64,000 bases of DNA, taken from the NCBI GenBank assembly GCA_964016885.1, contig OZ024741.1, forward strand, positions 254,138,001 to 254,202,000, written 5' to 3'. The notes beneath the pieces were generated by a model. The model was not told where the DNA came from. It ran no database searches and saw only the letters and a program-made list of their open reading frames with translations. Positions 1,306-55,232 of this stretch are shown here, piece after piece (the stretch's first letter is position 1; each line of letters begins with the position of its first letter). The position numbers and the translations under genes were made by a program. The stretch comes from Eledone cirrhosa. Taxonomy: Eukaryota.

Positions 1306-1345
1306 ACTATATATAGTACTGACCAGTTATGGCCAACCCATAGTT
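1306..1345 (+). promoter_or_regulatory. Putative core promoter of gene A (TATA plus Inr-like site)
   Basis: ACTATATATAGT at 1306-1317, CATAGTT about 30 nt downstream, ATG at 1372 in CAACATG context. Confidence 0.55.
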
Positions 1346-1371
1346 GCTGCAAAATACCTCAACAATTCAAC

Positions 1372-1426
1372 ATGAAGTTTCTTCTATTCGTCACCATTTC
1401 TCTCTTTGTCGCTTTAATTGCTGCAA
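1372..1426 (+). CDS. Gene A exon 1: signal peptide MKFLLFVTISLFVALIAA
   Basis: ATG-K plus hydrophobic core; 55 nt, followed by GTAAGT donor (phase 1). Confidence 0.85.
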
Positions 1427-1499
1427 GTAAGTATTATTGTATTGGTGGTACTTCTGATGCATTATGGTACTTGTTTAGTATTTCTGTAAAATGTTTTAC

Positions 1500-1508
1500 C
1501 TATCTATC

Positions 1509-1539
<31 letters not shown>

Positions 1540-1543
1540 CTAC

Positions 1544-1587
<44 letters not shown>
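1500..1587. repeat. (CTAT)n microsatellite; a second tract lies at about 2022-2095
   Basis: Direct reading. Confidence 0.95.
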
Positions 1588-2051
1588 GGTGGACAAGGTT
1601 AAAGGGGCTGAGGTCAGACACCTTTCTCTCCGGCCAACAACTGATTCTTTTTTTCAAATACCACTTTGGAAGAAGAATCAGGATGGAGAGAGAAGTGCTG
1701 TACCCCAGCAAGTTTTATGAAAGATGGGTGAAAGTGGCGAGAATGGCCCGAGTGAATGGGCCTTCTCTCTATATCAGCCTGTAGGTTGAGGAAAAAGAGG
1801 AAGAGAAGAAAGGGGTACAAACTCTTCGTACTCCTGGAGATGAGGGTTGCACATTTTTTCGGGGGTATGTGTTACCCATATGAAATGTCTCCTCCTATTG
1901 GGGAAAATCGATTAATTTTTAAATTGCATTTGTGATAGTATTTTACACGTTTTTATTGTATGTAAACTTCCCCCTTTGTATTTGTCCCCTTCTTTTGTGC
2001 CCCTGTGGCTAATAAAGAAACATATCTATCTATCTACCTGTCTATCTATCA

Positions 2052-2085
<34 letters not shown>

Positions 2086-2154
2086 ATATCTATCTTGTAA
2101 CTCTATTCTGTACCACTATGATAATGATTCTACTCGTCTTCTACCTATGCAGAT

Positions 2155-2966: not shown

Positions 2967-3015
<49 letters not shown>

Positions 3016-3347: not shown

Positions 3348-3382
<35 letters not shown>

Positions 3383-3389
<7 letters not shown>

Positions 3390-3778
3390 TAAATGGAATA
3401 GAAAATGCTGACAAATTGTCCACAGTTGAAAAATGGTTTAATTAGGAATAAAAGAGTATTAGTGATTGTATAGGTTAGTATTCAGTTGTGGTTTTAAGTT
3501 TTTAAGTTTTTACCGGTTGCGCATTTCTAAATGCTTTTCAAAAATAATTTTGAGATAGAGTGTCCGTGCTGTTTGCTCTGATCAGAGCAAACAGCACGGA
3601 CACTCTATCTCAAAATTATTTTTGAAAAGCATTTAGAAATGCGCAACCGGTAAAAACTTAACTTAAAACCACAACTGAATACTAACCCATACAATCACTA
3701 ATACTCTTTTATTCCTAATTAAACCATTTTTCAACTGTGAACAATTTGTCAGCATTTTCTATTCCGTCTACCAATATA
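3383..3778. repeat. Spacer-less palindrome of about 400 bp, centred on TGA|TCA at 3579-3584
   Basis: Arms of about 195 bp are near-perfect reverse complements (GTGTCCGTGCTGTTTGCTCTGA|TCAGAGCAAACAGCACGGACAC). Confidence 0.95.
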
Positions 3779-3809
3779 TAATAACTTGTGTGTTACACCT
3801 CTATTCTTT

Positions 3810-6305: not shown

Positions 6306-6329
6306 GTCCTTCAATTGATGATATAACAT
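6306..6329 (+). CDS. Gene A exon 2 (24 nt): (S)PSIDDIT
   Basis: ttctctctattcacAG acceptor, GTAAGT donor, symmetric phase 1-1, open frame. Confidence 0.75.
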
Positions 6330-8298: not shown

Positions 8299-8322
8299 TT
8301 AAAATTGAAAGAGCTGTGCAAG
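8299..8322 (+). CDS. Gene A exon 3 (24 nt): (F)KIERAVQ
   Basis: ttttcatatttcAG acceptor, AG|GTGAGT donor, phase 1-1. Confidence 0.75.
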
Positions 8323-30400: not shown

Positions 30401-33400
30401 CAGCTACACAGTGGCTATCTATACTGTCAACATCTACACACTGTGTCTATCCAGTCAACAGCTACACAGTGGCTATCCATACTGTCAACATCTAAACACT
30501 GTGTCTATCCAGTCAACAGCTACACAGTGGCTATCTATACTGTCAACATGAAAACACTGTGTCTATCCAGTCAACAGCTACACAGTGGCTATCTATACTG
30601 TCAACATGTAAACACTGTGTCTATCCAGTCAAAAGCTACACAGTGGCTATCTATACTGTCAACATGTAAACACTGTGTCTATCCAGTCAACAGCTACACA
30701 GTGGCTATCTATACTGTCAACATGTAAACACTGTGTCTATCCAGTCAACAGCTACACAGTGGCTATCTATACTGTCAACATGTAAACACTGTGTCTATCC
30801 AGTCAACAGCCACACAGTGGCTATCTATACTGTCAACATCTAGACACTGTGTCTATCCAGTCAACAGCTACACTGGCTATCTATACTGTCAACATCTACA
30901 CACTGTGTCTATCCAGTCAACAGCTACACAGTGGCTATCTATACTGTCAACATCTACACACTGTGTCTATCCAGTCAACAGCCACACGGTGGCTATCTAT
31001 ACTGTCAACATCTACACACTGTGTCTATCCAGTCAACAGCTACACAGTGGCTATCTATACTGTCAACATGTAAACACTGTGTCTATCCAGTCAACAGCTA
31101 CACAGTGGCTATCTATACTGTCAACATCTACACACTGTGTCTATCCAGTCAACAGCTACACAGTGGATATCTATACTGTCAACATCTACACACTGTGTCT
31201 ATCCAGTCAACAGCCACACAGTCACTATCTATACTGTCAACATCTACACACTGTGTCTATCCAGTCAACAGCTACACAGTGGCTATCTATACTGTCAACA
31301 TCTACCCACTGTGTCTATCCAGTCAACAGCTACACAGTGGCTATCTATACTGTCAACATCTACACACTGTGTCTATCCAGTCAACAGCCACACAGTCACT
31401 ATCTATACTGTCAACATCTACACACTGTGTCTATCCAGTCAACAGCTACACAGTGGCTATCTATACTGTCAACATCTAAACACTGTGTCTATCCAGTCAA
31501 CAGCTACACAGTTGCTATCTATACTGTCAACATGTAAACACTGTGTCTATCCAGTCAACAGCTACACAGTGGCTATCTATACTGTCAACATGTAAACACT
31601 GTGTCTATCCAGTCAACAGCCACACAGTGGCTATCTATACTGTCAACATCTACACACTGTGTCTATCCAGTCAACAGCTACACAGTGGCTATCTATACTG
31701 TCAACATCTACACACTGTGTCTATCCAGTCAACAGCTACACAGTGGCTATCTATACTGTCAACATCTACACACTGTGTCTATCCAGTCAACAGCCACACT
31801 GTGTCTATCCAGTCAACAGCTACACAGTGGCTATCTATACTGTCAACATGTAAACACTGTGTCTATCCAGTCAACAGCCACATAGTCACTATCTATACTG
31901 TCAACATCTACACACTGTGTCTATCCAGTCAACACCTACACAGTGGCTATCTATACTGTCAACATCTACACACTGTGTCTATCCAGTCAACAGCCACACA
32001 GTCACTATCTATACTGTCAACATCTACACACTGTGTCTATCCAGTCAACAGCTACACAGTGGCTATCCATACTGTCAACATCTAAACACTGTGTCTATCC
32101 AGTCAACAGCTACACAGTGGCTATCTATACTGTCAACATGTAAACACTGTGTCTATCCAGTCAACAGCTACACAGTGGCTATCTATACTGTCAACATGTA
32201 AACACTGTGTCTATCCAGTCAACAGCCACACAGTCACTATCTATACTGTCAACATGTAAACACTGTGTCTATCCAGTCAACAGCTACACAGTGGCTATCT
32301 ATACTGTCAACATGTAAACACTGTGTCTATCCAGTCAACAGCTACACAGTGGCTATCTATACTGTCAACATGTAAACACTGTGTCTATCCAGTCAACAGC
32401 TACACAGTGGCTATCTATACTGTCAACATGTAAACACTGTGTCTATCCAGTCAACAGCTACACAGTGGCTATCTATACTGTCAACATGTAAACACTGTGT
32501 CTATCCAGTCAACAGCCACACAGTGGCTATCTATACTGTCAACATCTAGACACTGTGTCTATCCAGTCAACAGCTACACTGGCTATCTATACTGTCAACA
32601 TCTACACACTGTGTCTATCCAGTCAACAGCTACACAGTGGCTATCTATACTGTCAACATCTACACACTGTGTCTATCCAGTCAACAGCCACACAGTGGCT
32701 ATCTATACTGTCAACATCTACACACTGTGTCTATCCAGTCAACAGCTACACAGTGGCTATCTATACTGTCAACATGTAAACACTGTGTCTATCCAGTCAA
32801 CAGCTACACAGTGGCTATCTATACTGTCAACATCTACACACTGTGTCTATCCAGTCAACAGCTACACAGTGGCTATCTATACTGTCAACATCTACACACT
32901 GTGTCTATCCAGTCAACAGCCACACAGTCACTATCTATACTGTCAACATCTACACACTGTGTCTATCCAGTCAACAGCTACACAGTGGCTATCTATACTG
33001 TCAACATCTACACACTGTGTCTATCCAGTCAACAGCTACACAGTGGCTATCTATACTGTAAACATCTACACACTGTGTCTATCCAGTCAACAGCCACACA
33101 GTCACTATCTATACTGTCAACATCTACACACTGTGTCTATCCAGTCAACAGCTACACAGTGGCTATCTATACTGTCAACATCTAAACACTGTGTCTATCC
33201 AGTCAACAGCTACACAGTTGCTATCTATACTGTCAACATGTAAACACTGTGTCTATCCAGTCAACAGCTACACAGTGGCTATCTATACTGTCAACATGTA
33301 AACACTGTGTCTATCCAGTCAACAGCCACACAGTGGCTATCTATACTGTCAACATCTACACACTGTGTCTATCCAGTCAACAGCTACACAGTGGCTATCT

Positions 33401-35378
33401 ATACTGTCAACATCTACACACTGTGTCTATCCAGTCAACAGCTACACAGTGGCTATCTATACTGTCAACATCTACACACTGTGTCTATCCAGTCAACAGC
33501 CACACTGTGTCTATCCAGTCAACAGCTACACAGTGGCTATCTATACTGTCAACATGTAAACACTGTGTCTATCCAGTCAACAGCCACATAGTCACTATCT
33601 ATACTGTCAACATCTACACACTGTGTCTATCCAGTCAACACCTACACAGTGGCTATCTATACTGTCAACATCTACACACTGTGTCTATCCAGTCAACAGC
33701 CACACAGTCACTATCTATACTGTCAACATCTACACACTGTGTCTATCCAGTCAACAGCTACACAGTGGCTATCCATACTGTCAACATCTAAACACTGTGT
33801 CTATCCAGTCAACAGCTACACAGTGGCTATCTATACTGTCAACATGTAAACACTGTGTCTATCCAGTCAACAGCTACACAGTGGCTATCTATACTGTCAA
33901 CATGTAAACACTGTGTCTATCCAGTCAACAGCTACACAGTGGCTATCTATACTGTCAACATGTAAACACTGTGTCTATCCAGTCAACAGCTACACAGTGG
34001 CTATCTATACTGTCAACATGTAAACACTGTGTCTATCCAGTCAACAGCCACACAGTGGCTATCTATACTGTCAACATCTAGACACTGTGTCTATCCAGTC
34101 AACAGCTACACTGTGGCTATCTATACTGTCAACATCTACACACTGTGTCTATCCAGTCAACAGCTACACAGTGGCTATCTATACTGTCAACATCTACACA
34201 CTGTGTCTATCCAGTCAACAGCTACACAGTCACTATCTATACTGTCAACATCTACACACTGTGTCTATCCAGTCAATAGCTACACAGTGGCTATCTATAC
34301 TGTCAACATGTAAACACTGTGTCTATCCAGTCAACAGCCACACAGTCACTATCTATACTGTCAACATCTACACACTGTGTCTATCCAGTCAACAGCTACA
34401 CAGTGGCTATCTATACTGTCAACATGTAAACACTGTGTCTATCCAGTCAACAGCCACACAGTCACTCTCTATACTGTCAACATCTACACACTGTGTCTAT
34501 CCAGTCAACAGCTACACAGTGGCTATCTATACTGTCAACATGTAAACACTGTGTCTATCCAGTCAACAGCTACACAGTGGCTATCTATACTGTCAACATG
34601 TAAACACTGTGTCTATCCAGTCAACAGCCACACAGTCACTATCTATACTGTCAACATCTACACACTGTGTCTATCCAGTCAACAGCTACACAGTGGCTAT
34701 CTATACTGTCAACATCTAAACACTGTGTCTATCCAGTCAACAGCCACACAGTCACTATCTATACTGTAAACATCTACACACTGTGTCTATCCAGTCAACA
34801 GCTACACAGTGGCTATCTATACTGTCAACATCTACACACTGTGTCTATCGAGTCATCAGCTACACAGTGGCTATCTATACTGTCAACATCTACACACTGT
34901 GTCTATCCAGTCAACAGCTACACAGTGGCTATCTATACTGTCAACATGTAAACACTGTGTCTATCCAGTCAACAGCCACACAGTCACTATCTATACTGTC
35001 AACATCTACACACTGTGTCTATCCAGTCAACAGCTACACAGTGGCTATCTATACTGTCAACATGTAAACACTGTGTCTATCCAGTCAACAGCTACACAGT
35101 GGCTATCTATACTGTCAACATGTAACACTGTGTCTATCCAGTCAACAGCCACACAGTCACTATCTATACTGTCAACATCTACACACTGTGTCTATCCAGT
35201 CAACAGCTACACAGTGGCTATCTATACTGTCAACATCTACACAATGTGTCTATCCAGTCAACAGCTACACAGTGGCTATCTATACTGTCAACATCTACAC
35301 ACTGTGTCTATCCAGTCAACAGCTACACAGTGGCTATCTATACTGTCAACATCTACACACTGTGTCTATCCAGTCAAC
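21430..35378. repeat. 58-bp satellite array, about 240 units; degenerate monomers at about 21185-21430
   Basis: Unit ACACTGTGTCTATCCAGTCAACAGCT+ACACAGTGGCTATCTATACTGTCAACATCTAC (26+32-nt related halves); copy number is length divided by 58. Confidence 0.98.
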
Positions 35379-35924
35379 ATATTGTATCTCTCTCTCTCTC
35401 TCTCTTTCTCTCTCTACCATACCTGCACTGCCATTACACTCTAACTATTCTTAAACTGACTCTTGAAGCTAGTCTTGCTATTGTTTTCAAAACGTTTTGT
35501 TGGGAAAAGATTTTAAAAGAATTCTTTACATTATTTTGTGAAGGAAATCTATAGTTTTAGAGATTTCTCGAAATCTTGAAATTCTCGAGTACTCTTGCTA
35601 TCTGTGGTTATTGTTGTTGTTAAGTACCAGTAATGCACTTGGTAATTGCTGACCTTGTGCCCAAAGTAGAAACAATTATTATGATTGAGATATGAGTTAA
35701 GAGCCTCCAACCAATGTGAAATATCGATATGCAAAAATAAATTCTCCTGAAGGTCAAGTTATAAAACTATAAAAATTTTATAAAGACTAAAAACATTTTT
35801 TTTTCTAAATTTGAAAAATTTAAATTTTGAAGTTGTCACAGAACTGCACCAGGAGGAACTTTAGGTCAGCAGAATTATATATCAATTTGACAATGCCTTG
35901 AATCTTTGGTGTTTTTAAAATTAG

Positions 35925-35958: not shown

Positions 35959-36678
35959 CATCATCACCATTTAACATCCATTTTCCATGCTAGTATGGGT
36001 TATATCATCATCATCATCACCGTTTTATGTCCGTTCTTCCATGCTAGCATGGCTTAGACGGGTTGTCCTGTTGTGGGCAGTATCCGGTCGTCTGACCTTG
36101 TCTTGCTCATATGGGAACTGATTCTGGCTTGATTTCTACAGCTGGGTGCCCATCCTAACACCAACCTCATTTACAATGAGTGCTGGGTGCTTTTTTTCCA
36201 TGGCGCCTACACGTCCACTTTACAGTGTGGGCTGGGTGCTTTTTTGCTATGGCGGTGTTAGGGAAGGTAAATGAGGGAGGAGGAGGGAAATGCTAGTTGC
36301 AGGCTAGTGTACTCTACATGGTTTTCCTTCCTGTGCACATGGGAAGGCAGGTCTTCTGCAGTACAGCATAACATGAGAACCCAATCTTGTGTCATCTTCT
36401 TTGAGAGGGTTAATTGTGCAAGGTCAGCTTATATCACTTCATCCTAAGTTTTTCCATCTCTTCCCCTTCCATAGCTTCCATCACTTTTGAGCACCCTGCA
36501 CCTTTTTATACATTTGTCATCCTCCATACTATGCATCACATGTCCGTACCATTACCATCTCCTTTTCTGCATACTGCATTTGATTTCTCTTATACCCAAT
36601 TTTTCTCTTAGTTCATTTACACCTCATCATTCATGCCCACTACTATTACACATCTGTCAAAGTATACAAGCTTCATTT
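35955..36678 (-). mobile_element. RTE 3' fragment; 36258-36678 is a near-identical inverted copy of 19841-20262
   Basis: ORF track gives almost identical peptides (MSTLHLFIHLSS.., MCKVSLYHFIL..) on opposite strands at both sites. Confidence 0.9.
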
Positions 36679-36769
36679 CATAATTATGATGTTAAGTACT
36701 CTCTTCCACTCTCTTTCTTTCTCTCCCTCTCTTAGACACACACAATATAGAAAATATTATGTTCCTTAC

Positions 36770-36790
36770 CTGCCTGGTGGTGTGAATGAT
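36770..36790 (-). CDS. Gene B exon 5 (21 nt): (H)HSHHQA
   Basis: ttttgatattttcAG acceptor, AG|GTAAGG donor, phase 1-1. Confidence 0.8.
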
Positions 36791-38131: not shown

Positions 38132-38173
38132 GATCATGATCATAGCTATGCTCATGGCTTCCTTGATTGCCCT
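38132..38173 (-). CDS. Gene B exon 4 (42 nt): (E)GNQGSHEHSYDHD
   Basis: ctccctaatttcAG acceptor, GTAAGT donor, phase 1-1, His/Asp-rich frame. Confidence 0.8.
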
Positions 38174-39122: not shown

Positions 39123-39161
39123 CTCCATGTTGGTGGTGATCGTGATGATCATGCCCATGGT
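39123..39161 (-). CDS. Gene B exon 3 (39 nt): (H)HGHDHHDHHQHG
   Basis: tttatttctatctttctAG acceptor, AG|GTAAGT donor, phase 1-1. Confidence 0.85.
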
Positions 39162-40094: not shown

Positions 40095-41205
40095 ACAGAC
40101 AGATAGACAGGCTGACAGATAGACAGGCTGAGAGATAGACAGGCTGACAGATAGACAGGCTGACAGATAGACATGCTGACAGATAGACAAGCTGACAGAT
40201 AGACAGGCTGAGAGATAGACAGGCTGTCAGATAGACAGGTTGACAGATAGACAGGCTGATAGATAGACAGACTGACAGATAGACAGGCTGTCAGATAGAC
40301 AGGTTGACAGATAGACAGGCTGACAGATAGACAGGCTGAGAGATAGACAGGCTGTCAGATAGACAGGTTGACAGATAGACAGGCTGTCAGATAGACAGGT
40401 TGACAGACAGGTTGACAGATAGACAGGCTGAGAGATAGACAGGCTGACATATAGACAGGCTGAGAGATAGACAGGCTGACAGATAGACAGGCTGATAGAT
40501 AGACAGGCTGACAGATAGACAGGCTGACAGACAGGTTGACAGATAGACAGGCTGAGAGATAGACAGGCTGACAGATAGACAGGCTGAGAGATAGACAGGC
40601 TGTCAGATAGACAGACTGACAGATAGACAAGCTGACAGATAGGCAGGCTGAGAGATAGACAGGCTGTCAGATAGACAGGCTGTCAGATAGACAGGCTGTC
40701 AGATAGACAGGCTGACAGATAGACAGGCTGACAGATAGACAGACTGACAGATAGACAGGCTGTCAGATAGACAGGCTGTCAGATAGACAGGCTGTCAGAT
40801 AGACAGGCTGACAGATAGACAGGCTGTCAGATAGACAGGCTGTCAGATAGACAGGCTGACAGATAGACAGGCTGAGAGATAGACAGGCTGTCAGATAGAC
40901 AGACTGACAGATAGACAGGCTGAGAGATAGACAGGCTGTCAGATAGACAGGCTGTCAGATAGACAGGCTGTCAGATAGACAGGCTGACAGATAGACAGGC
41001 TGACAGATATACATGTTGACAGATAGACAGGCTGACAGATAGACAGGCTGTGAGATAGACAGGCTGTGAGATAGACAGGCTGAGAGATAGACAGGCTGAG
41101 AGATAGACAGGCTGTCAGATAGACAGGCTGACAGATAGACAGGCTGAGAGATAGACAGGCTGACAGATAGACAGGCTGAGAGATAGACAAGTTGAGAGAT
41201 AGACA
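40095..41205. repeat. 16-bp minisatellite (GACAGGCTGACAGATA)n
   Basis: Direct reading; variants GTCAG/GACAG/GAGAG. Confidence 0.95.
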
Positions 41206-41334
41206 GGCAGAGAGAGAGTCAGACAGAGACAGGCTAACAGACAGATAAATAGACAGAGAGACAGATAGGAAGACAAACCGATAGACATACACACAGACAG
41301 ACAGACATGCAGATTGACAGGCTAACAGAAAGAT

Positions 41335-41618
41335 AGACAAACAGAGCGGCAGATGGGCTGACAGATAGACAGGTAGTGAGATAGAGAGACAGACAGACTG
41401 ACAGACAGACAGGCAGGCAAATAGACAGAGAGACAGATGGGCTGACAGATAGACAGGTAGTGAGATAGAGAGACAGACAGGCAGGCAGGCAGGCAAATAG
41501 ACAGAGAGACAGATGGGCTGACAGATAGACAGGTAGTGAGATAGAGAGACAGACAGACAGACAGGCAGGCAAATAGACAGAGAGACAGATGGGCTGACAG
41601 ATAGACAGGTAGTGAGAT

Positions 41619-41651
<33 letters not shown>

Positions 41652-44600
41652 GGCAAATAGACAGAGAGACAGATGGGCTGACAGATAGACAGGTAGTGAG
41701 ATAGAGAGACAGACAGGCAGGCAGGCAGGCAAATAGACAGAGAGACAGATGGGCTGACAGATAGACAGGTAGTGAGATAGAGAGACAGACAGACTGACAG
41801 GCAGGCAAATAGACAGAGAGACAGATGGGCTGACAGATAGAACAGGTAGTGAGATAGAGAGACAGACAGACTGACAGACAGGCAGGCAAATAGACAGAGA
41901 GACAGATGGGCTGACAGATAGACAGGTAGTGAGATAGAGAGACAGACAGGCAGGCAGGCAGGCAAATAGACAGAGAGACAGATGGGCTGACAGATAGACA
42001 GGTAGTGAGATAGAGAGACAGACAGACTGACAGGCAGGCAGGCAAATAGACAGAGAGACAGATGGGCTGACAGATAGACAGGTAGTGAGATAGAGAGACA
42101 GACAGACTGACAGGCAGGCAGGCAAATAGACAGAGAGACAGATGGGCTGACAGATAGACAGGTAGTGAGATAGAGAGACAGACAGACTGACAGACAGGCA
42201 GGCAAATAGACAGAGAGACAGATGGGCTGACAGATAGACAGGTAGTGAGATAGAGAGACAGACAGGCAGGCAGGCAGGCAAATAGACAGAGAGACAGATG
42301 GGCTGACAGAGAGACAGATGGGCTGACAGATAGACAGGTAGTGAGATAGAGAGACAGACAGACTGACAGGCAGGCAAATAGACAGAGAGACAGATGGGCT
42401 GACAGATAGACAGGTAGTGAGATAGAGAGACAGACAGACTGACAGACAGGCAGGCAAATAGACAGAGAGACAGATGGGCTGACAGATAGACAGGTAGTGA
42501 GATAGAGAGACAGACAGACTGACAGACAGGCAGGCAAATAGACAGAGAGACAGATGGGCTGACAGATAGACAGGTAGTGAGATAGAGAGACAGACAGACT
42601 GACAGGCAGGCAAATAGACAGAGAGACAGATGGGCTGACAGATAGACAGGTAGTGAGATAGAGAGACAGACAGACTGACAGACAGACAGGCAGGCAAATA
42701 GACAGAGAGACAGATGGGCTGACAGATAGACAGGTAGTGAGATAGAGAGACAGACAGGCAGGCAGGCAGGCAAATAGACAGAGGGCTGACAGATAGACAG
42801 GTAGTGAGATAGAGAGACAGACAGACTGACAGGCAGGCAGGCAAATAGACAGAGAGACAGATGGGCTGACAGATAGACAGGTAGTGAGATAGAGAGACAG
42901 ACAGACTGACAGACAGACAGGCAGGCAAATAGACAGAGAGACAGATGGGCTGACAGATAGACAGGTAGTGAGATAGAGAGACAGACAGGCAGGCAGGCAG
43001 GCAAATAGACAGAGAGACAGATGGGCTGACAGATAGACAGGTAGTGAGATAGAGAGACAGACAGACTGACAGGCAGGCAAATAGACAGAGAGACAGATGG
43101 GCTGACAGATAGACAGGTAGTGAGATAGAGAGACAGACAGACTGACAGGCAGGCAAATAGACAGAGAGACAGATGGGCTGACAGATAGACAGGTAGTGAG
43201 ATAGAGAGACAGACAGACTGACAGGCAGGCAGGCAAATAGACAGAGAGACAGATGGGCTGACAGATAGACAGGTAGTGAGATAGAGAGACAGACAGACTG
43301 ACAGGCAGGCAAATAGACAGAGAGACAGATGGGCTGACAGATAGACAGGTAGTGAGATAGAGAGACAGACAGACTGACAGGCAGGCAGGCAAATAGACAG
43401 AGAGACAGATGGGCTGACAGATAGACAGGTAGTGAGATAGAGAGACAGACAGACTGACAGGCAGGCAAATAGACAGAGAGACAGATGGGCTGACAGATAG
43501 ACAGGTAGTGAGATAGAGAGACAGACAGACTGACAGGCAGGCAGGCAAATAGACAGAGAGACAGATGGGCTGACAGATAGACAGGTAGTGAGATAGAGAG
43601 ACAGACAGACTGACAGGCAGGCAAATAGACAGAGAGACAGATGGGCTGACAGATAGACAGGTAGTGAAATAGAGAGACAGACAGACTGACAGGCAGGCAA
43701 ATAGACAGAGAGACAGATGGGCTGACAGATAGACAGGTAGTGAGATAGAGAGACAGACAGACTGACAGGCAGGCAGGCAAATAGACAGAGAGACAGATGG
43801 GCTGACAGATAGACAGGTAGTGAGATAGAGAGACAGACAGACTGACAGGCAGGCAGGCAAATAGACAGAGAGACAGATGGGCTGACAGATAGACAGGTAG
43901 TGAGATAGAGAGACAGACAGACTGACAGGCAGGCAGGCAAATAGACAGAGAGACAGATGGGCTGACAGATAGACAGGTAGTGAGATAGAGAGACAGACAG
44001 ACTGACAGGCAGGCAAATAGACAGAGAGACAGATGGGCTGACAGATAGACAGGTAGTGAGATAGAGAGACAGACAGACAGGCAGGCAAATAGACAGAGCG
44101 GCAGATGGGCTGACAGATAGACAGGTAGTGAGATAGAGAGACAGACAGGCAGGCAGGCAGGCAGGCAAATAGACAGAGAGACAGATGGGCTGACAGATAG
44201 ACAGGTAGTGAGATAGAGAGACAGACAGACTGACAGACAGGCAGGCAAATAGACAGAGAGACAGATGGGCTGACAGATAGACAGGTAGTGAGATAGAGAG
44301 ACAGACAGACTGACAGACAGGCAGGCAAATAGACAGAGAGACAGATGGGCTGACAGATAGACAGGTAGTGAGATAGAGAGACAGACAGACTGACAGACAG
44401 GCAGGCAAATAGACAGAGAGACAGATGGGCTGACAGATAGACAGGTAGTGAGATAGAGAGACAGACAGACTGACAGACAGGCAGGCAAATAGACAGAGAG
44501 ACAGATGGGCTGACAGATAGACAGGTAGTGAGATAGAGAGACAGACAGACAGGCAGGCAAATAGACAGAGCGGCAGATGGGCTGACAGATAGACAGGTAG

Positions 44601-47600
44601 TGAGATAGAGAGACAGACAGACTGACAGGCAGGCAGGCAAATAGACAGAGAGACAGATGGGCTGACAGATAGACAGGTAGTGAGATAGAGAGACAGACAG
44701 ACAGGCAGGCAAATAGACAGAGCGGCAGATGGGCTGACAGATAGACAGGTAGTGAGATAGAGAGACAGACAGACAGGCAGGCAAATAGACAGAGAGACAG
44801 ATGGGCTGACAGATAGACAGGTAGTGAGATAGAGAGACAGACTGACAGACAGGCAGGCAAATAGACAGAGAGACAGATGGGCTGACAGATAGACAGGTAG
44901 TGAGATAGAGAGACAGACAGACTGACAGGCAGGCAAATAGACAGAGAGACAGATGGGCTGACAGATAGACAGGTAGTGAGATAGAGAGACAGACAGACTG
45001 ACAGGCAGGCAGGCAAATAGACAGAGAGACAGATGGGCTGACAGATAGACAGGTAGTGAGATAGAGAGACAGACAGACTGACAGGCAGGCAAATAGACAG
45101 AGAGACAGATGGGCTGACAGATAGACAGGTAGTGAGATAGAGAGACAGACAGACAGGCAGGCAAATAGACAGAGCGGCAGATGGGCTGACAGATAGACAG
45201 GTAGTGAGATAGAGAGACAGACAGACTGACAGGCAGGCAGGCAAATAGACAGAGAGACAGATGGGCTGACAGATAGACAGGTAGTGAGATAGAGAGACAG
45301 ACAGACTGACAGGCAGGCAGGCAAATAGACAGAGAGACAGATGGGCTGACAGATAGACAGGTAGTGAGATAGAGAGACAGACAGACTGACAGGCAGGCAA
45401 ATAGACAGAGAGACAGATGGGCTGACAGATAGACAGGTAGTGAGATAGAGAGACAGACAGACAGACAGACAGGCAAATAGACAGAGAGACAGATGGGCTG
45501 ACAGATAGACAGGTAGTGAGATAGAGAGACAGACAGACAGGCAGGCAAATAGACAGAGCGGCAGATGGGCTGACAGATAGACAGGTAGTGAGATAGAGAG
45601 ACAGACAGACTGACAGACAGGCAGGCAAATAGACAGAGCGACAGATGGGCTGACAGATAGACAGGTAGTGAGATAGAGAGACAGACAGACTGACAGGCAG
45701 GCAGGCAAATAGACAGAGAGACAGATGGGCTGACAGATAGACAGGTAGTGAGATAGAGAGACAGACAGACTGACAGGCAGGCAAATAGACAGAGAGACAG
45801 ATGGGCTGACAGATAGACAGGTAGTGAGATAGAGAGACAGACAGACTGACAGGCAGGCAGGCAAATAGACAGAGAGACAGATGGGCTGACAGATAGACAG
45901 GTAGTGAGATAGAGAGACAGACAGACTGACAGGCAGGCAAATAGACAGAGAGACAGATGGGCTGACAGATAGACAGGTAGTGAGATAGAGAGACAGACAG
46001 ACTGACAGGCAGGCAGGCAAATAGACAGAGAGACAGATGGGCTGACAGATAGACAGGTAGTGAGATAGAGAGACAGACAGGCAGGCAGGCAGGCAAATAG
46101 ACAGAGAGACAGATGGGCTGACAGATAGACAGGTAGTGAGATAGAGAGACAGACAGACTGACAGGCAGGCAGGCAAATAGACAGAGAGACAGATGGGCTG
46201 ACAGATAGACAGGTAGTGAGATAGAGAGACAGACAGACTGACAGGCAGGCAGGCAAATAGACAGAGAGACAGATGGGCTGACAGATAGACAGGTAGTGAG
46301 ATAGAGAGACAGACAGACTGACAGGCAGGCAAATAGACAGAGAGACAGATGGGCTGACAGATAGACAGGTAGTGAGATAGAGAGACAGACAGACAGGCAG
46401 GCAGGCAAATAGACAGAGAGACAGATGGGCTGACAGATAGACAGGTAGTGAGATAGAGAGACAGACAGACAGGCAGGCAAATAGACAGAGCGGCAGATGG
46501 GCTGACAGATAGACAGGTAGTGAGATAGAGAGACAGACAGACTGACAGGCAGGCAAATAGACAGAGAGACAGATGGGCTGACAGATAGACAGGTAGTGAG
46601 ATAGAGAGACAGACAGACAGGCAGGCAGGCAAATAGACAGAGAGACAGATGGGCTGACAGATAGACAGGTAGTGAGATAGAGAGACAGACAGACAGGCAG
46701 GTAAATAGACAGAGCGGCAGATGGGCTGACAGATAGACAGGTAGTGAGATAGAGAGACAGACAGACTGACAGGCAGGCAAATAGACAGAGAGACAGATGG
46801 GCTGACAGATAGACAGGTAGTGAGATAGAGAGACAGACAGACTGACAGGCAGGCAGGCAAATAGACAGAGAGACAGATGGGCTGACAGATAGACAGGTAG
46901 TGAGATAGAGAGACAGACAGACTGACAGGCAGGCAAATAGACAGAGAGACAGATGGGCTGACAGATAGACAGGTAGTGAGATAGAGAGACAGACAGACAG
47001 GCAGGCAGGCAAATAGACAGAGAGACAGATGGGCTGACAGATAGACAGGTAGTGAGATAGAGAGACAGACAGACAGGCAGGCAAATAGACAGAGCGGCAG
47101 ATGGGCTGACAGATAGACAGGTAGTGAGATAGAGAGACAGACAGACTGACAGGCAGGCAAATAGACAGAGAGACAGATGGGCTGACAGATAGACAGGTAG
47201 TGAGATAGAGAGACAGACAGACTGACAGACAGACAGGCAGGCAAATAGACAGAGAGACAGATGGGCTGACAGATAGACAGGTAGTGAGATAGAGAGACAG
47301 ACAGACTGACAGGCAGGCAAATAGACAGAGAGACAGATGGGCTGACAGATAGACAGGTAGTGAGATAGAGAGACAGACAGACTGACAGGCAGGCAAATAG
47401 ACAGAGAGACAGATGGGCTGACAGATAGACAGGTAGTGAGATAGAGAGACAGACAGACTGACCGGCAGGCAAATAGACAGAGAGACAGATGGGCTGACAG
47501 ATAGACAGGTAGTGAGATAGAGAGACAGACAGGCAGGCAGGCAGGCAAATAGACAGAGAGACAGATGGGCTGACAGATAGACAGGTAGTGAGATAGAGAG

Positions 47601-50600
47601 ACAGACAGACTGACAGGCAGGCAAATAGACAGAGAGACAGATGGGCTGACAGATAGACAGGTAGTGAGATAGAGAGACAGACAGACTGACCGGCAGGCAA
47701 ATAGACAGAGAGACAGATGGGCTGACAGATAGACAGGTAGTGAGATAGAGAGACAGACAGGCAGGCAGGCAGGCAAATAGACAGAGAGACAGATGGGCTG
47801 ACAGATAGACAGGTAGTGAGATAGAGAGACAGACAGACTGACAGGCAGGCAAATAGACAGAGAGACAGATGGGCTGACAGATAGACAGGTAGTGAAATAG
47901 AGAGACAGACAGACTGACAGGCAGGCAAATAGACAGAGAGACAGATGGGCTGACAGATAGACAGGTAGTGAGATAGAGAGACAGACAGACTGACCGGCAG
48001 GCAAATAGACAGAGAGACAGATGGGCTGACAGATAGACAGGTAGTGAGATAGAGAGACAGACAGGCAGGCAGGCAGGCAAATAGACAGAGAGACAGATGG
48101 GCTGACAGATAGACAGGTAGTGAGATAGAGAGACAGACAGACTGACAGGCAGGCAAATAGACAGAGAGACAGATGGGCTGACAGATAGACAGGTAGTGAG
48201 ATAGAGAGACAGACAGACTGACCGGCAGGCAAATAGACAGAGAGACAGATGGGCTGACAGATAGACAGGTAGTGAGATAGAGAGACAGACAGGCAGGCAG
48301 GCAGGCAAATAGACAGAGAGACAGATGGGCTGACAGATAGACAGGTAGTGAGATAGAGAGACAGACAGACTGACAGGCAGGCAAATAGACAGAGAGACAG
48401 ATGGGCTGACAGATAGACAGGTAGTGAGATAGAGAGACAGACAGACTGACAGGCAGGCAAATAGACAGAGAGACAGATGGGCTGACAGATAGACAGGTAG
48501 TGAGATAGAGAGACAGACAGACTGACAGGCAGGCAGGCAAATAGACAGAGAGACAGATGGGCTGACAGATAGACAGGTAGTGAGATAGAGAGACAGACAG
48601 ACTGACAGCAGGCAAATAGACAGAGAGACAGATGGGCTGACAGATAGACAGGTAGTGAGATAGAGAGACAGACAGACTGACAGAGCAGGCAAATAGACAG
48701 AGAGACAGATGGGCTGACAGATAGACAGGTAGTGAGATAGAGAGACAGACAGACTGACAGGCAGGCAAATAGACAGAGAGACAGATGGGCTGACAGATAG
48801 ACAGGTAGTGAGATAGAGAGACAGACAGACTGACAGGCAGGCAAATAGACAGAGAGACAGATGGGCTGACAGATAGACAGGTAGTGAGATAGAGAGACAG
48901 ACAGACTGACAGGCAGGGCAGGCAAATAGACAGAGAGACAGATGGGCTGACAGATAGACAGGTAGTGAGATAGAGAGACAGACAGACTGACAGGCAGGCA
49001 GGCAAATAGACAGAGAGACAGATGGGCTGACAGATAGACAGGTAGTGAGATAGAGAGACAGACAGACTGACAGGCAGGCAGGCAAATAGACAGAGAGACA
49101 GATGGGCTGACAGATAGACAGGTAGTGAGATAGAGAGACAGACAGACTGACAGGCAGGCAAATAGACAGAGAGACAGATGGGCTGACAGATAGACAGGTA
49201 GTGAGATAGAGAGACAGACAGACAGGCAGGCAAATAGACAGAGCGGCAGATGGGCTGACAGATAGACAGGTAGTGAGATAGAGAGACAGACAGGCATGCA
49301 GGCAGGCAGGCAAATAGACAGAGAGACAGATGGGCTGACAGATAGACAGGTAGTGAGATAGAGAGACACCAGACTGACAGACAGGGCAGGCAAATAGACA
49401 GAGAGACAGATGGGCTGACAGATAGACAGGTAGTGAGATAGAGAGACAGACAGACTGACAGCAGGCAGGCAAATAGACAGAGAGACAGATGGGCTGACAG
49501 ATAGACAGGTAGTGAGATAGAGAGACAGACAGACTGACAGGCAGGCAAATAGACAGAGAGACAGATGGGCTGACAGATAGACAGGTAGTGAGATAGAGAG
49601 ACAGACAGACAGACAGGCAGGCAAATAGACAGAGAGACAGATGGGCTGACAGATAGACAGGTAGTGAGATAGAGAGACAGACAGACTGACAGGCAGGCAA
49701 ATAGACAGAGAGACAGATGGGCTGACAGATAGACAGGTAGTGAGATAGAGAGACAGACAGACTGACAGGCAGGCAGGCAAATAGACAGAGAGACAGATGG
49801 GCTGACAGATAGACAGGTAGTGAGATAGAGAGACAGACAGACTGACAGGCAGGCAGGCAAATAGACAGAGAGACAGATGGGCTGACAGATAGACAGGTAG
49901 TGAGATAGAGAGACAGACAGACTGACAGGCAGGCAAATAGACAGAGAGACAGATGGGCTGACAGATAGACAGGTAGTGAGATAGAGAGACAGACAGACAG
50001 GCAGGCAAATAGACAGAGCGGCAGATGGGCTGACAGATAGACAGGTAGTGAGATAGAGAGACAGACAGACTGACAGGCAGCAGGCAAATAGACAGAGAGA
50101 CAGATGGGCTGACAGATAGACAGGTAGTGAGATAGAGAGACAGACAGACTGACAGGCAGGCAAATAGACAGAGAGACAGATGGCTGACAGATAGACAGGT
50201 AGTGAGATAGAGAGACAGACAGACTGACAGACAGGCAGGGCAAATAGACAGAGAGGACAGATGGGCTGACAGATAGACAGGTAGTGAGATAGAGGAGACA
50301 GACAGACTGACAGGCAGGCAGGCAAATAGACAGAGAGACAGATGGGCTGACAGATAGACAGGTAGTGAGATAGAGAGACAGACAGACTGACAGGCAGGCA
50401 AATAGACAGAGAGACAGATGGCTGACAGATAGACAGGTAGTGAGATAGAGAGACAGACAGACAGGCAGGCAATAGACAGAGCGGGCAGATGGGCTGACAG
50501 ATAGACAGGTAGTGAGATAGAGAGACAGACAGACTGACAGGCAGGCAAATAGACAGAGAGGACAGATGGGCTGACAGATAGACAGGTAGTGAGATAGAGA

Positions 50601-52668
50601 GACAGACAGACAGGCAGGCAGGCAAATAGACAGAGAGACAGATGGGCTGACAGATAGACAGGTAGTGAGATAGAGAGACAGACAGACAGGCAGGGTAAAT
50701 AGACAGAGCGGCAGATGGGCTGACAGATAGACAGGTAGTGAGATAGAGAGACAGACAGACTGACAGGCAGGCAAATAGACAGAGAGACAGATGGGCTGAC
50801 AGATAGACAGGTAGTGAGATAGAGAGACAGACAGACTGACAGGCAGGCAGGCAAATAGACAGAGAGACAGATGGGCTGACAGATAGACAGGTAGTGAGAT
50901 AGAGAGAGACAGACAGACTGACAGGCAGGCAAATAGACAGAGAGGACAGATGGGCTGACAGATAGACAGGTAGTGAGATAGAGAGACAGACAGACTGACA
51001 GGCAGGCAGGCAAATAGACAGAGAGACAGATGGGCTGACAGATAGACAGGTAGTGAGATAGAGAGACAGACAGACTGACAGGCAGGCAGGCAAATAGACA
51101 GAGAGACAGATGGGCTGACAGATAGACAGGTAGTGAGATAGAGAGACAGACAGACTGACAGGCAGGCAAATAGACAGAGAGACAGATGGGCTGACAGATA
51201 GACAGGTAGTGAGATAGAGAGACAGACAGACAGACAGACAGGCAAATAGACAGAGAGACAGATGGGCTGACAGATAGACAGGTAGTGAGATAGAGAGACA
51301 GACAGACTGACAGGCAGGCAAATAGACAGAGAGACAGATGGGCTGACAGATAGACAGGTAGTGAGATAGAGAGACAGACAGACAGACAGACAGGCAAATA
51401 GACAGAGAGACAGATGGGCTGACAGATAGACAGGTAGTGAGATAGAGAGACAGACAGACTGACAGGCAGGCAAATAGACAGAGAGACAGATGGGCTGACA
51501 GATAGACAGGTAGTGAGATAGAGAGACAGACAGACTGACAGGCAGGCAGGCAAATAGACAGAGCGGCAGATGGGCTGACAGATAGACAGGTAGTGAGATA
51601 GAGAGACAGACAGACTGACAGACAGGCAGGCAAATAGACAGAGCGGCAGATGGGCTGACAGATAGACAGGTAGTGAGATAGAGAGACAGACAGACTGACA
51701 GGCAGGCAGGCAAATAGACAGAGAGACAGATGGGCTGACAGATAGACAGGTAGTGAGATAGAGAGACAGACAGACTGACAGGCAGGCAAATAGACAGAGA
51801 GACAGATGGGCTGACAGATAGACAGGTAGTGAGATAGAGAGACAGACAGACTGACAGGCAGGCAGGCAAATAGACAGAGAGACAGATGGGCTGACAGATA
51901 GACAGGTAGTGAGATAGAGAGACAGACAGACTGACAGGCAGGCAGGCAAATAGACAGAGAGACAGATGGGCTGACAGATAGACAGGTAGTGAGATAGAGA
52001 GACAGACAGACTGACAGGCAGGCAGGCAAATAGACAGAGAGACAGATGGGCTGACAGATAGACAGGTAGTGAGATAGAGAGACAGACAGACAGGCAGGCA
52101 AATAGACAGAGCGGCAGATGGGCTGACAGATAGACAGGTAGTGAGATAGAGAGACAGACAGACTGACAGACAGGCAGGCAAATAGACAGAGAGACAGATG
52201 GGCTGACAGATAGACAGGTAGTGAGATAGAGAGACAGACAGACTGACAGGCAGGCAAATAGACAGAGAGACAGATGGGCTGACAGATAGACAGGTAGTGA
52301 GATAGAGAGACAGACAGACTGACAGGCAGGCAGGCAAATAGACAGAGAGACAGATGGGCTGACAGATAGACAGGTAGTGAGATAGAGAGACAGACAGACT
52401 GACAGGCAGGCAGGCAAATAGACAGAGAGACAGATGGGCTGACAGATAGACAGGTAGTGAGATAGAGAGACAGACAGACTGACAGGCAGGCAGGCAAATA
52501 GACAGAGAGACAGATGGGCTGACAGATAGACAGGTAGTGAGATAGAGAGACAGACAGACAGGCAGGCAAATAGACAGAGCGGCAGATGGGCTGACAGATA
52601 GACAGGTAGTGAGATAGAGAGACAGACAGACTGACAGACAGGCAGGCAAATAGACAGAGAGACAGATG
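41335..52668. repeat. Purine-rich satellite, unit about 72-84 bp, roughly 145 units
   Basis: GCAAATAGACAGAGAGACAGATGGGCTGACAGATAGACAGGTAGTGAGATAGAGAGACAGACAGACTGACAGGCAG with variable numbers of GACA/GGCA tetramers. Confidence 0.98.
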
Positions 52669-52695
52669 GATATGTATCAATATATTTATACTTAC

Positions 52696-52710
52696 GAGCA
52701 GCAGAGTGAA
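52696..52710 (-). CDS. Gene B exon 2 (15 nt): (V)HSAA, probable signal-peptidase site VHS|AA
   Basis: ctttattctttccttacAG acceptor, GTAAGT donor, phase 1-1. Confidence 0.8.
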
Positions 52711-55101
52711 CTGTAAGGAAAGAATAAAGTTTGAGAATATAAATCAAAACAACAATAATTATTATTGGCAATATTATTAGGGCTTTGGGTAAAATGCTTT
52801 GTGGCATTTGTTTCGGCCCTTTACATTGTAGGTTTGAATCCTGCTGAGGTTAGCTTTGCCATTCATCCCTATAAGGTTGATAAAATAAAGTACCAGTTAT
52901 GTATTGGGTCAATTTAATTGATTTTTCCCACCCACAAAATTGTTGGCCTTGTACCTAAATCAGAAATCAGTATTAACAGAGTCCTTGGAGCATTGGTCAA
53001 AATGCCTTGCAGTATTTGTTCCAACATTTTATCTAAACTATAATAAAGAAAGGAGTGTGGGACTGCATCCAGAATATATTATTATCCTGTTTGTAAAATA
53101 AGTTGGATTACTTTGAATAAATAATGAATGAATATTACATAATTTATCTACTAAATTTCGTTATTCTTGATTAAATATAAATAATTTTGTTGTTTATTTT
53201 AAGATTCACTTCTTTAAAATTTTCAAATGTGAACACTTCCGGTTAGCGATCATTTAAATAAACATTCATATATTTCCGTCACTAATTTTCTCCTAATGCA
53301 GATAATATCATCTTTTTTTAATGTATCATGGATTACGTTACTGAATACATAAGACAGTGTGAGGCAGTCTCCATGCATTTTATTTGATGTGTCATATCTG
53401 CATGCATATATATTTGCGTATGATATCAATATACACACTACACATGCTAGCAGAAAACCACCCATGGTTTTTCTGTTAATAATAATAATGAAAATTATTG
53501 TGTACAGTGCTCAGGTGCACTACAACTCATCAAATGTACATGTATAATACATAGAATAATCTACAAATGTCAGAAAAGTAATCAGTGCATCGATTATGAT
53601 ATTTACAGATACACACACATACATGCATGCGTGTGTATAGAGGGGGAATATCAGGTGTAGTGTTGGCGAATTTCAGGAAGCATGGAAGTTTTGGAGGATG
53701 CAGTGTCCCGACAGCTAACTACCTATGCAGGTAATTTGTTCCATGCTTCAGCAACTCCGAGCATGAAAACATGTTTCTGAAAGTCATGGGAGCTGTGCTA
53801 TTCTGAGTTCAAATCCTGATGAGGATAATTTTTGACTTTTATCCTTCAAAGTTTGATAAAATAGCAAATGGTGTTCTGGGTTGATATAATTGATTAGTTC
53901 CTCCCACAAAATGTTTGGCATTGTGATTATGTAAGAAATTTTTTTTTTTTTTTTTTTAGCATGCGCACCAGGTCACAGATTTTAGAGATATGTAGTTGAC
54001 TATACCAAGCCAAGTACACCACTGGGAATTTATATTTTATCAACCCAGGAGGATAATCTTAGGGAGGGGGAATTTGAAATTCTGAACATAAAGTGTTGAA
54101 ACTAAATTTACTACAAGGTGTTTTGTCTGCTGCTCTAAGGAGTCAGCTAATTGCATGCTTTAAAATCAACAACAACAACTTCTGCGGATCACTCATGTAG
54201 AAAGCCCACAAAGAAACCATGGTCACCCTGACCATGGGGCAAGTGTTCCCTCCCAGTTGTCCTCCAATGTACACGTATATACTCAGAGCAGGCCCTTTTA
54301 CTCAGACTATGATTATCACTCGCATTCACCTTTCAACAAATATGTTGGAAGGCAACACTTCCTTTCCACCCTGATTTGCTTGTTCAAGGGAAACGTGAAA
54401 AAGTTAATCAGGACCTTTGCCAAATAGGAAAGCGCTTGTCCTCAACCCTGTCAAATACATCCAGCACAGCAACTCTTTCGCCATGGACATCAGGCAAATA
54501 AAAGCAGCCTGCCCTCCCTAGTGGGGCAATCTTTGTGATGGACTCAACTGATAACTGCAACCATCCTATATGTGATAGTGGGTGTTTGACATAAACCTAC
54601 AACTCAGCAATGGGGAATAGAAGCATATTAATGACAAACTTCCTATTTGATGTGATGCCGACATGGTAAAAAAGCACCCAACCCACACTGTAAAGTATTC
54701 ACTTAGTTGTCGTGACTGCAGTTTCATTGAGTAACCTCAGTTTTGAGCACTGTGAAAAATCTCTACTCATCAGGGAACTTCGCGATCAAGAAAAAAATTC
54801 TGATGAGTTATCCGCTACCAGCGATAATTTTGAATGGGAGAATTATCACATGATTTACAGCCAACAGAAGGGCAGCAGTATGTGGACAATGGCAAGTAAC
54901 GGGGCTGCTAGAGGCAGTCTGATTCAGTCAAATTTATTTTACTCAACCACAAAGGAGAAATTTACAAATTTATTGAAGATTATATATATATATATAAAAT
55001 GATGAAATTATTTGCAGTGTAATGAGTGAAAACAGTAAATTAATAAAAGTAAAATTAAGATACAATAAATGAACTGTGTATACAGTTAAAATTTTTCTTA
55101 C

Positions 55102-55156
55102 CTTCAACAACCAAGGCAAAAGCCACGAGCACAACAAGAGTAATTGGTATCTTCAT
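55102..55156 (-). CDS. Gene B exon 1: signal peptide MKIPITLVVLVAFALVVE
   Basis: ATG-K plus hydrophobic core; 55 nt; AG|GTAAGA donor (phase 1); TATA about 55 nt upstream. Confidence 0.85.
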
Positions 55157-55176
55157 TCTTGATGATTCTCACTTAA

Positions 55177-55232
55177 AAATGATCCCAGTTCGGTAGTGAT
55201 GCTTCTTTATATATATAAAGAAGCATCACTAC
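55177..55232 (-). promoter_or_regulatory. Core promoter of gene B: TATATAAAG inside a perfect 40-bp palindrome, Inr-like TCATTT near 55180
   Basis: GTAGTGATGCTTCTTTATATATATAAAGAAGCATCACTAC (55193-55232) is its own reverse complement. Confidence 0.65.

What the first reader, a model, noticed from the sequence alone, without database searches (positions are those of the whole stretch)
1306..55232. Shared architecture suggests a cluster of micro-exon secreted-peptide genes (MEG-like system)
Seen: two tail-to-tail genes (polyA signals about 1.9 kb apart) with unrelated mature sequences. Both have a TATA about 55-60 nt before the ATG, an MK-initiated signal exon of exactly 55 coding nt, only phase-1 introns (9 of 9), and seven symmetric internal exons of 15-45 nt. 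Known: schistosome micro-exon genes (MEGs) use symmetric micro-exons to diversify secreted proteins by exon skipping, and vertebrate SCPP genes (casein, statherin, histatin) form clusters of small-exon secreted genes, though with phase-0 introns. Inference: a common-origin, fast-evolving cluster in which any internal exon can be skipped or duplicated without frameshift. A phase-1 intron after a signal exon is common in animals, so shared ancestry is not proven.
Basis: partly seen in the sequence, partly recalled or inferred. Interest (0 to 1): 0.82.

Follow-up and report, generated by a model that had tools for sequence, protein, structure and literature searches.

The report
Two octopod short-exon secreted-peptide genes
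Two neighbouring genes in an octopus-type genome, each laid out in short frame-preserving exons, are predicted to encode small secreted peptides with no likeness to each other (one histidine-rich and likely metal-binding); they form a lone pair rather than a large cluster, and exon skipping is untested.

Summary
The gene anatomy holds. Gene A (+, 5 coding exons, 71 aa) and gene B (-, 6 coding exons, 65 aa) each have a TATA box, a 55-nt MK signal exon, only phase-1 introns (9 of 9) and seven symmetric internal exons in all; their polyA signals lie 1.9 kb apart. Such exons are about sevenfold above local background.

The MEG-like cluster reading is only partly supported. No third member appears in 1.26 Mb. 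All eight own-genome searches returned only the gene itself as a significant match. A and B share no detectable sequence, even in the signal exon. Exon number and micro-exon share fall far below schistosome MEGs. B exon 2 carries the only plausible signal-cleavage sites, so it is probably not freely skippable.

Best reading: an old, fully diverged pair of orphan gland-peptide genes, SCPP-like in layout, with mostly fixed splicing. B is a His/Asp/Ser pH- and metal-responsive peptide; A is a KR-processed precursor. Splicing, tissue and function are untested.

The parts
1306..1317 (+). Gene A TATA-like box (centre of a 12-bp palindrome), 62-64 nt before the ATG
1372..1426 (+). Gene A exon 1 coding part, 55 nt: MK start and whole predicted signal peptide (cleavage after residue 17 or 18); phase-1 donor
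6306..6329 (+). Gene A exon 2, 24 nt, phase 1-1, acidic
8299..8322 (+). Gene A exon 3, 24 nt, phase 1-1, holds a single Arg (residue 31)
15090..15134 (+). Gene A exon 4, 45 nt, phase 1-1, holds the Lys-Arg pair (residues 45-46); alternative in-frame acceptor at 15039 would give 96 nt
17219..17286 (+). Gene A last exon, coding part with stop (tandem acceptor 17216/17219)
17570..17575 (+). Gene A polyadenylation signal
19460..19465 (-). Gene B polyadenylation signal
19593..19618 (-). Gene B last exon, coding part with stop
19840..20262 (.). Arm 1 of a 423-bp inverted repeat (98.8%) in B intron 5, 221 nt from the acceptor
21251..35380 (.). 58-bp satellite array inside B intron 5
36259..36679 (.). 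Arm 2 of the inverted repeat, 90 nt from the B exon 5 donor
36770..36790 (-). Gene B exon 5, 21 nt, phase 1-1, His-rich (3 of 6 whole codons)
38132..38173 (-). Gene B exon 4, 42 nt, phase 1-1, His/Ser/acidic (3 His of 13)
39123..39161 (-). Gene B exon 3, 39 nt, phase 1-1, His-rich (7 of 12)
40110..52669 (.). 76-bp satellite array inside B intron 2
52696..52710 (-). Gene B exon 2, 15 nt, phase 1-1; supplies the predicted signal-peptidase site (after residue 21 or 23)
55102..55156 (-). Gene B exon 1 coding part, 55 nt: MK start and hydrophobic core of the signal peptide; phase-1 donor
55193..55232 (-). Gene B TATA box at the centre of a perfect 40-bp palindrome

Best explanation
Two single-copy, tail-to-tail genes with open, stop-ending reading frames are predicted to encode small secreted peptides and are likely an old duplicate pair whose symmetric phase-1 exons likely served as building blocks gained and lost over evolution, rather than as a switchboard for many splice forms. 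Shown from sequence: TATA box, short intronless leader, 55-nt signal exon, all-phase-1 introns, stop and AATAAA in both. Inferred: strong expression in one secretory tissue, mostly one splice form per gene. Gene B would yield a peptide of about 42 residues, cysteine-free and without Lys or Arg (16 His, 8 Asp/Glu), whose computed charge runs from +4 at pH 5.5 to -9 at pH 8.1; it likely binds Zn or Cu and changes state on release from an acidic granule into seawater. Gene A would yield a 53-residue cysteine-free precursor, likely cut at its Lys-Arg pair to free a 25-residue C-terminal peptide. Because exon 1 ends in phase 1, as in most secreted proteins, only phase 1-1 exons can be added or lost without a frameshift, which explains the uniform phase without any regulated skipping.
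For: Gene models and open frames. Short symmetric exons enriched sevenfold. His content recurs across separate B exons in one phase; only 1 of 26 background open symmetric candidates reaches 20% His. A and B are the only MK + TATA + hydrophobic phase-1 first exons among 16 candidates in 1,264,000 bases, yet they are adjacent and share exon-1 length, which favours a shared origin (my rough inference, not a computed result). Precedent: SCPP genes are grouped by intron-exon structure with mostly non-alignable sequence, and a shark scpp gene lies tail-to-tail with its parent (PMC9122587, passages). Against free skipping: B exon 2 is needed for a cleavage site; no exon pair with alike flanks and exon (36 pairs). 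His-driven pH and Zn switches are known in secreted marine proteins (PMC9999432, passages).
Against: No sequence trace of common origin: exon 1 24 of 55 nt and 4 of 18 aa (codon-shuffle p 0.60); promoter-exon 1 p 0.21, 5' UTR p 0.97, 3' UTR p 0.85, mature peptides p 0.87, signal p 0.66. In SCPP and aphid cassette families the signal part does stay alike. The cleavage site sits in exon 1 in A but in exon 2 in B; internal exon lengths do not correspond. No orthologue was found, so conservation of the KR site or the His residues is not shown. Function and tissue rest on composition alone. The (-3,-1) scan is a simple rule from established knowledge, not a trained predictor.
Confidence: 0.5

Rival explanations
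1. A and B are unrelated orphan genes that happen to be neighbours; the shared traits are generic features of highly expressed secreted-peptide genes.
For: All homology tests at chance. A phase-1 intron 50-100 nt into the CDS is general for conotoxin, neuropeptide and secreted genes in a snail (PMC12621736, passages) and was explicitly rejected as evidence of common descent in scorpion venom genes (PMC5308243, passages). Opposite orientation; different position of the cleavage site. An MK start is common in secreted proteins (recalled, no call).
Against: The only two such first exons in 1.26 Mb lie next to each other and match in length exactly; all seven later introns are also phase 1 in both (chance 0.008 at a 50% base rate; the 50% figure is for human secreted proteins).
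Confidence: 0.3
2. A MEG-like system: both genes are alternatively spliced by exon skipping to give pools of secreted variants (up to 8 and 16 frames).
For: All skip combinations stay in frame. Signal peptide plus small symmetric exons and long introns are MEG traits. A has alternative in-frame acceptors. Unchecked scan notes report many micro-exon arrays in this genome (leads only).
Against: Only 3 and 4 internal exons against 10-20 in MEGs; 18-22% of the CDS in internal exons of 36 nt or less against up to 75%; single-copy genes; no recent exon duplicates; B exon 2 is needed for cleavage; donors match the consensus at 5-6 of 6 positions.
Confidence: 0.12
3. One or both models are wrong in part or are no longer expressed (for instance A exon 4 is 96 nt, or B's very long satellite-filled introns break the transcript).
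For: Models are read from DNA alone; 4 of 11 sense-strand candidates are decoys; A's exons have no compositional thread and a GC content close to their flanks; B has introns of 13.5 and 17.2 kb filled with satellites.
Against: Complete promoters, strong splice sites, open frames, stops and polyA signals in both; B exons 2-5 are 45-53% GC against 20-27% upstream.
Confidence: 0.08

Closest known systems
Schistosome micro-exon genes (MEGs) (bioRxiv 10.1101/2023.06.21.545858, part 1 of 3 read; PMC4350168 and PMC4015677, passages)
   Same: Signal peptide, small symmetric internal exons, long introns, no known domain.
   Different: MEGs have 10-20 very short exons (mostly 15 nt), up to 75% of the CDS in micro-exons, multigene families and documented skipping, and are reported as restricted to flatworms. 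Here: 3-4 internal exons of 15-45 nt, 18-22% in exons of 36 nt or less, two single-copy genes, skipping untested.
Vertebrate SCPP cluster (PMC9122587, passages; membership of casein, statherin and histatin is recalled)
   Same: Linked secreted genes recognised by shared layout rather than sequence; one uniform intron phase; a tail-to-tail pair is known.
   Different: SCPP introns are mostly phase 0, the signal peptide stays alignable and members descend from sparc-L. Here phase 1, no signal likeness, mollusc; analogy only.
Pea aphid KQY/KHI cassette effector families (PMC7495047, part 1 of 5 read)
   Same: Big genes, small secreted products, divergent mature parts built from miniature exons.
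   Different: Those share a conserved signal cassette, have up to 37 exons, 6-11 members and known isoforms.
Squid histidine-rich beak proteins and Nereis jaw proteins (PMC9999432, passages; PMC9068888, passages)
   Same: Secreted, His-rich, charge switch near pH 6.5; Nereis proteins also acidic and Zn-responsive.
   Different: HBPs are Gly/Ala-rich with GHGXY/GAGFA repeats, 10-16% His, and were not found in O. bimaculoides. B is far shorter, about 38% His, with 4 Gly, 1 Tyr and no such repeats, so hydrophobic coacervation is unlikely and metal binding more likely.
Histatins and other His-rich salivary or antimicrobial peptides (recalled, no call)
   Same: Short, secreted, His-rich, cysteine-free.
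   Different: Histatins are cationic (Lys/Arg-rich); mature B has no Lys or Arg and is acidic at seawater pH.

Membership tests
Schistosome-type MEG | N-terminal signal peptide, secreted product | tested here: met
   Hydrophobic core and (-3,-1) sites in both; rule-based prediction only
Schistosome-type MEG | Internal exons symmetric (multiples of 3) | tested here: met
   7 of 7
Schistosome-type MEG | 10-20 very short exons making up most of the coding region | tested here: not met
   3 and 4 internal exons; 22% and 18% of CDS in internal exons of 36 nt or less; 43% and 59% in all internal exons; no further convincing candidates
Schistosome-type MEG | Multiple isoforms by exon skipping | not testable with these tools
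   Needs RNA; see Tried and rejected
Schistosome-type MEG | Multigene families or clusters of paralogues | tested here: not met
   Single-copy in eight searches; no third gene in 1.26 Mb. Very diverged paralogues elsewhere would be missed
Schistosome-type MEG | Raised dN/dS in the mature part | not testable with these tools
   No orthologue or paralogue in hand
SCPP-like cluster | Shared intron-exon layout among linked secreted genes | tested here: met
   Same exon-1 length, uniform phase, adjacency
SCPP-like cluster | Phase-0 introns and descent from sparc-L | tested here: not met
   All phase 1; neighbours found are a receptor tyrosine kinase, zinc-finger genes and a protocadherin (only the longest ORFs were scanned)
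SCPP-like cluster | Alignable signal peptide among members | tested here: not met
   4 of 18 aa; p 0.60 and 0.66
Aphid-type cassette effector family | Conserved signal cassette on divergent mini-exon bodies | tested here: not met
   Exon 1 of A and of B are single-copy and unlike each other
Squid histidine-rich beak proteins | Gly/Ala-rich with tandem GHGXY/GAGFA pentapeptides | tested here: not met
   Composition after residue 23: 16 His, 4 Gly, 1 Ala, 1 Tyr of 42
His-rich metal-binding secreted peptide (functional class) | Binds Zn/Cu/Ni | not testable with these tools
   Composition and charge curve only

The most novel reading that the evidence does not exclude
A and B are the remains of an octopod SCPP/MEG-like system: one ancestral signal-exon gene duplicated head-out, each copy rebuilt its secreted body from phase-1 short exons, and both now put out co-expressed pools of skip isoforms, with B varying its number of metal-binding His blocks. 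This would be a free-living mollusc using the micro-exon diversification known from parasites and aphids.
Probability: 0.12. Interest if true: 0.7.

Novelty: new member of a known kind. Interest (0 to 1): 0.38.

Why it matters
Genes like these are easily missed by annotation: 216 and 198 coding bases are spread over 16 and 36 kb of repeat-filled DNA. They add two candidate lineage-restricted secretory peptides to octopods. One is an unusually His-dense acidic peptide in a group where the squid His-rich beak proteins were not found (PMC9068888, passages). The torso/Mer-like kinase next door gives a synteny anchor, so common origin and skipping can be tested directly with public Octopus genomes and long reads. 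The design itself (signal exon, uniform phase, short exons) is already known from MEGs, SCPPs and aphid effectors, so surprise is moderate unless skipping is shown.

Tried and rejected
RNA: no RNA holder listed. The three runs offered cover introns and exons alike as short contigs and behave as DNA; none of the 15 joints shown (of more than 2,100) matches a predicted intron (laid on the part of gene A holding exons 1-3 only). This says nothing on expression.

Protein relatives: A exon 4 frame, no candidate (28-91 aa only); A exon 1 frame, 7 candidates, none at E<=10; B exon 4 frame, one unnamed 633-aa protein, 30% identity, E 5.6e-5, rejected as probably compositional; ESM Atlas no usable hit for two exon frames; Pfam 0 of 6 exon frames; Rfam 0 in the window. 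All protein queries were single exons padded with intron, so these blanks are weak; the spliced proteins and A's last exon were not searched against the protein collections, and no fold was attempted.

Genome-wide signal-exon pattern: not run; only fetched flanks were scanned, so the genome-wide frequency of this layout is open. His-exon-end pattern: 6 matches, 2 being B exons 3 and 5 by construction, control 2; the other 4 are not His-rich exons. The two weak extra matches (E 4.5, 4.8) were rejected.

Nesting in the kinase gene rejected: its last exon ends about 9 kb before B's promoter. The 12-nt candidate exon at 18751-18740 was rejected because it lies beyond B's stop and AATAAA. Three of 36 exon pairs had one nominal p below 0.03, as expected from 108 tests; B3-B4 (p 0.01) reflects His codons.

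Literature: ten searches listed no paper on these genes or on cephalopod MEG-like genes; two short motifs occur in 0 papers. DeMarco 2010 and Kawasaki and Weiss 2003 are not held. No supplements were read; the gene tables of PMC9068888 and PMC7656900 may list orthologues.
Full report
Observation. Gene A has coding exons of 55, 24, 24, 45 and 68 nt (71 aa; introns 4.9, 2.0, 6.8, 2.1 kb). Gene B has 55, 15, 39, 42, 21 and 26 nt (65 aa; introns 2.4, 13.5, 0.9, 1.3, 17.2 kb). All 9 introns are GT-AG and phase 1, both frames end in a stop followed by AATAAA, and the signals are 1,884 nt apart. TATA-like boxes lie 62-64 nt (A) and 55-59 nt (B) before the ATG.

Is it chance? In 864 kb (327,634 bases not tandem repeat), 7 of 11 sense-strand candidates within the genes are symmetric and open in phase 1, against 26 of 114 elsewhere (p 0.007); density predicts 0.96 (p 6e-5). 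Thresholds were chosen after seeing the exons, so these values are optimistic. B is the firmer model: exons 2-5 are 45-53% GC against 20-27% upstream, and His recurs in all five later exons. A rests on splice sites, promoter, frame and polyA. Splice sites of the neighbouring kinase gene have the same look.

Setting. The window lies in a 3.0-Gb genome. The region is 62% tandem repeat; a 39-bp array starts 169 kb from the window start, and 11 of 12 one-kb samples out to about 1.2 Mb downstream are satellite. The next gene on B's side is a torso/Mer-like receptor tyrosine kinase: 10 co-linear matches of 46-100% identity to an Octopus bimaculoides protein, ending about 9 kb before B's promoter; residues 1-345 were not placed. 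On A's side lie C2H2 zinc-finger ORFs at about -80 to -115 kb (150 of 693 ORFs scanned) and a protocadherin ORF at about -495 kb (50 of 172 scanned). The animal is thus an octopod; I did not name it further.

Cluster? I fetched 1,200,000 flanking bases (740 kb upstream with one 10-kb gap, 400 kb downstream, and a 70-kb island beyond). With the window, 544,190 bases are not tandem repeat. A strict filter gave 16 hydrophobic phase-1 first-exon candidates, 5 rows with a TATA. Two are A and B, two share one donor in a dispersed repeat, and one lies in an inverted repeat; only A and B start MK. Own-genome searches with A exons 1, 4 and 5 and B exons 1, 3, 4 and 6 found only the gene itself at significant scores. 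So this is a pair, not a family, unless paralogues are too diverged for these searches.

Common origin? There is no sequence trace. Exon 1: 24 of 55 nt, 4 of 18 aa, codon-shuffle p 0.60. Promoter plus exon 1 p 0.21, 5' UTR 0.97, 3' UTR 0.85, signal 0.66, mature 0.87; none of 36 exon pairs is alike in both exon and flanks. A phase-1 intron 50-100 nt into the CDS is generic for secreted genes in a cone snail (PMC12621736, passages) and was rejected as evidence of descent for scorpion venom genes (PMC5308243, passages). On the other side, the only two such genes in 1.26 Mb are neighbours with the same exon-1 length and start, and seven further introns keep phase 1 (0.008 at a 50% rate). SCPP genes are classed by layout with non-alignable bodies, including a tail-to-tail pair, though their signal peptides stay alike (PMC9122587, passages). 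I put common origin a little above even; this is judgement, not computation.

Skipping? All 24 skip combinations are in frame, but that follows from the phase. By the (-3,-1) rule (established knowledge; simple scan), A is cut after residue 17 or 18, inside exon 1. B is cut after 21 or 23, inside exon 2, and without exon 2 no site remains between residues 15 and 30. MEGs have 10-20 very short exons (bioRxiv 10.1101/2023.06.21.545858, part 1 of 3), up to 75% of the CDS in micro-exons and documented skipping (PMC4015677, passages; PMC4350168, passages). Here the share is 22% and 18%. Aphid cassette effectors share a conserved signal cassette (PMC7495047, part 1 of 5), which A and B do not. Isoforms could not be examined.

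Likely function (inferred). Mature B (42 aa after residue 23): 16 His, 6 Ser, 5 Asp, 3 Glu, no Cys, Lys or Arg; computed charge +4.4 at pH 5.5, -0.1 at 6, -8.7 at 8.1; GRAVY -2.5. That fits a disordered Zn/Cu-binding, pH-switched peptide better than a cationic antimicrobial or a beak-type coacervating protein, which needs Gly/Tyr pentapeptide repeats (PMC9999432, passages). Beak HBPs were not found in O. bimaculoides (PMC9068888, passages). Mature A (53 aa, no Cys) has Arg at 31 and 39 and Lys-Arg at 45-46, the layout of a prohormone- or gland-peptide precursor; its last exon shows no Gly-basic amidation signal. PMC7656900 (passages) reports that novel gene families are a main feature of octopod genomes but names nothing like these.

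Earlier scan notes: none near this locus or on look-alike DNA. Unchecked notes report other micro-exon arrays and a Gly/His secreted peptide gene elsewhere in this genome; I used them as context only.

Verdict. The anatomy is real and well read. It is a pair of orphan secreted-peptide genes with a modular all-phase-1 layout, possibly of common origin. It works like SCPP-type modular secreted genes but is not shown to be, and on two tested features is not, a MEG system. Interest 0.38; 0.7 if skipping and common origin were shown (probability about 0.12).

Noticed in passing
window 19840-20262 and 36259-36679: A 423-bp inverted repeat (98.8%) sits 90 nt from the donor and 221 nt from the acceptor of B's 17-kb last intron and encloses 16 kb with the 58-bp satellite. 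The arm is an old LINE-like piece only 67-72% like other local copies, so the near-identity is recent (local copying or conversion). In pre-mRNA it could pair and bring the splice sites together. Near-identical inverted pairs are common in this region.
   Followed up: partly
window 55193-55232: B's TATA box is the centre of a perfect 40-bp palindrome, one of 8 perfect palindromes with arms of 20 or more and at least 5 G/C in 864 kb; A's TATA centres a 12-bp palindrome.
   Followed up: partly
window 15039-15134: Alternative in-frame acceptor with a perfect branch-point heptamer; would add 17 codons to A exon 4.
   Followed up: partly
window 21251-35380 and 40110-52669: Two satellite arrays (58-bp, about 241 copies; 76-bp, about 160 copies) fill two introns of gene B; the 58-bp unit was found nowhere else in 864 kb.
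   Followed up: partly
window 3380-3780: A 400-bp near-perfect palindrome (96.5%), fold-back or MITE-like, in A intron 1.
   Followed up: no
L024-L028, window-scale +64.4 to +111.3 kb, minus strand: Torso/Mer-like receptor tyrosine kinase gene directly upstream of gene B; a useful synteny anchor.
   Followed up: yes
L012:2074-3636, L014:701-1396, L015: C2H2 zinc-finger ORFs, one intact over 521 codons.
   Followed up: no
L113:4564-6987 (-): An 808-codon open protocadherin-type ORF about 495 kb upstream.
   Followed up: no
G000:C2, from about 254.307 Mb to beyond 255.4 Mb: More than 1 Mb of alternating 39-bp and 16-bp satellite, possibly pericentromeric.
   Followed up: no
window-scale -244 to -231 kb and +126.8 to +130.6 kb: Pieces of a recent segmental duplication (98-99%) 360-370 kb apart that carry several exon-like segments.
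   Followed up: no
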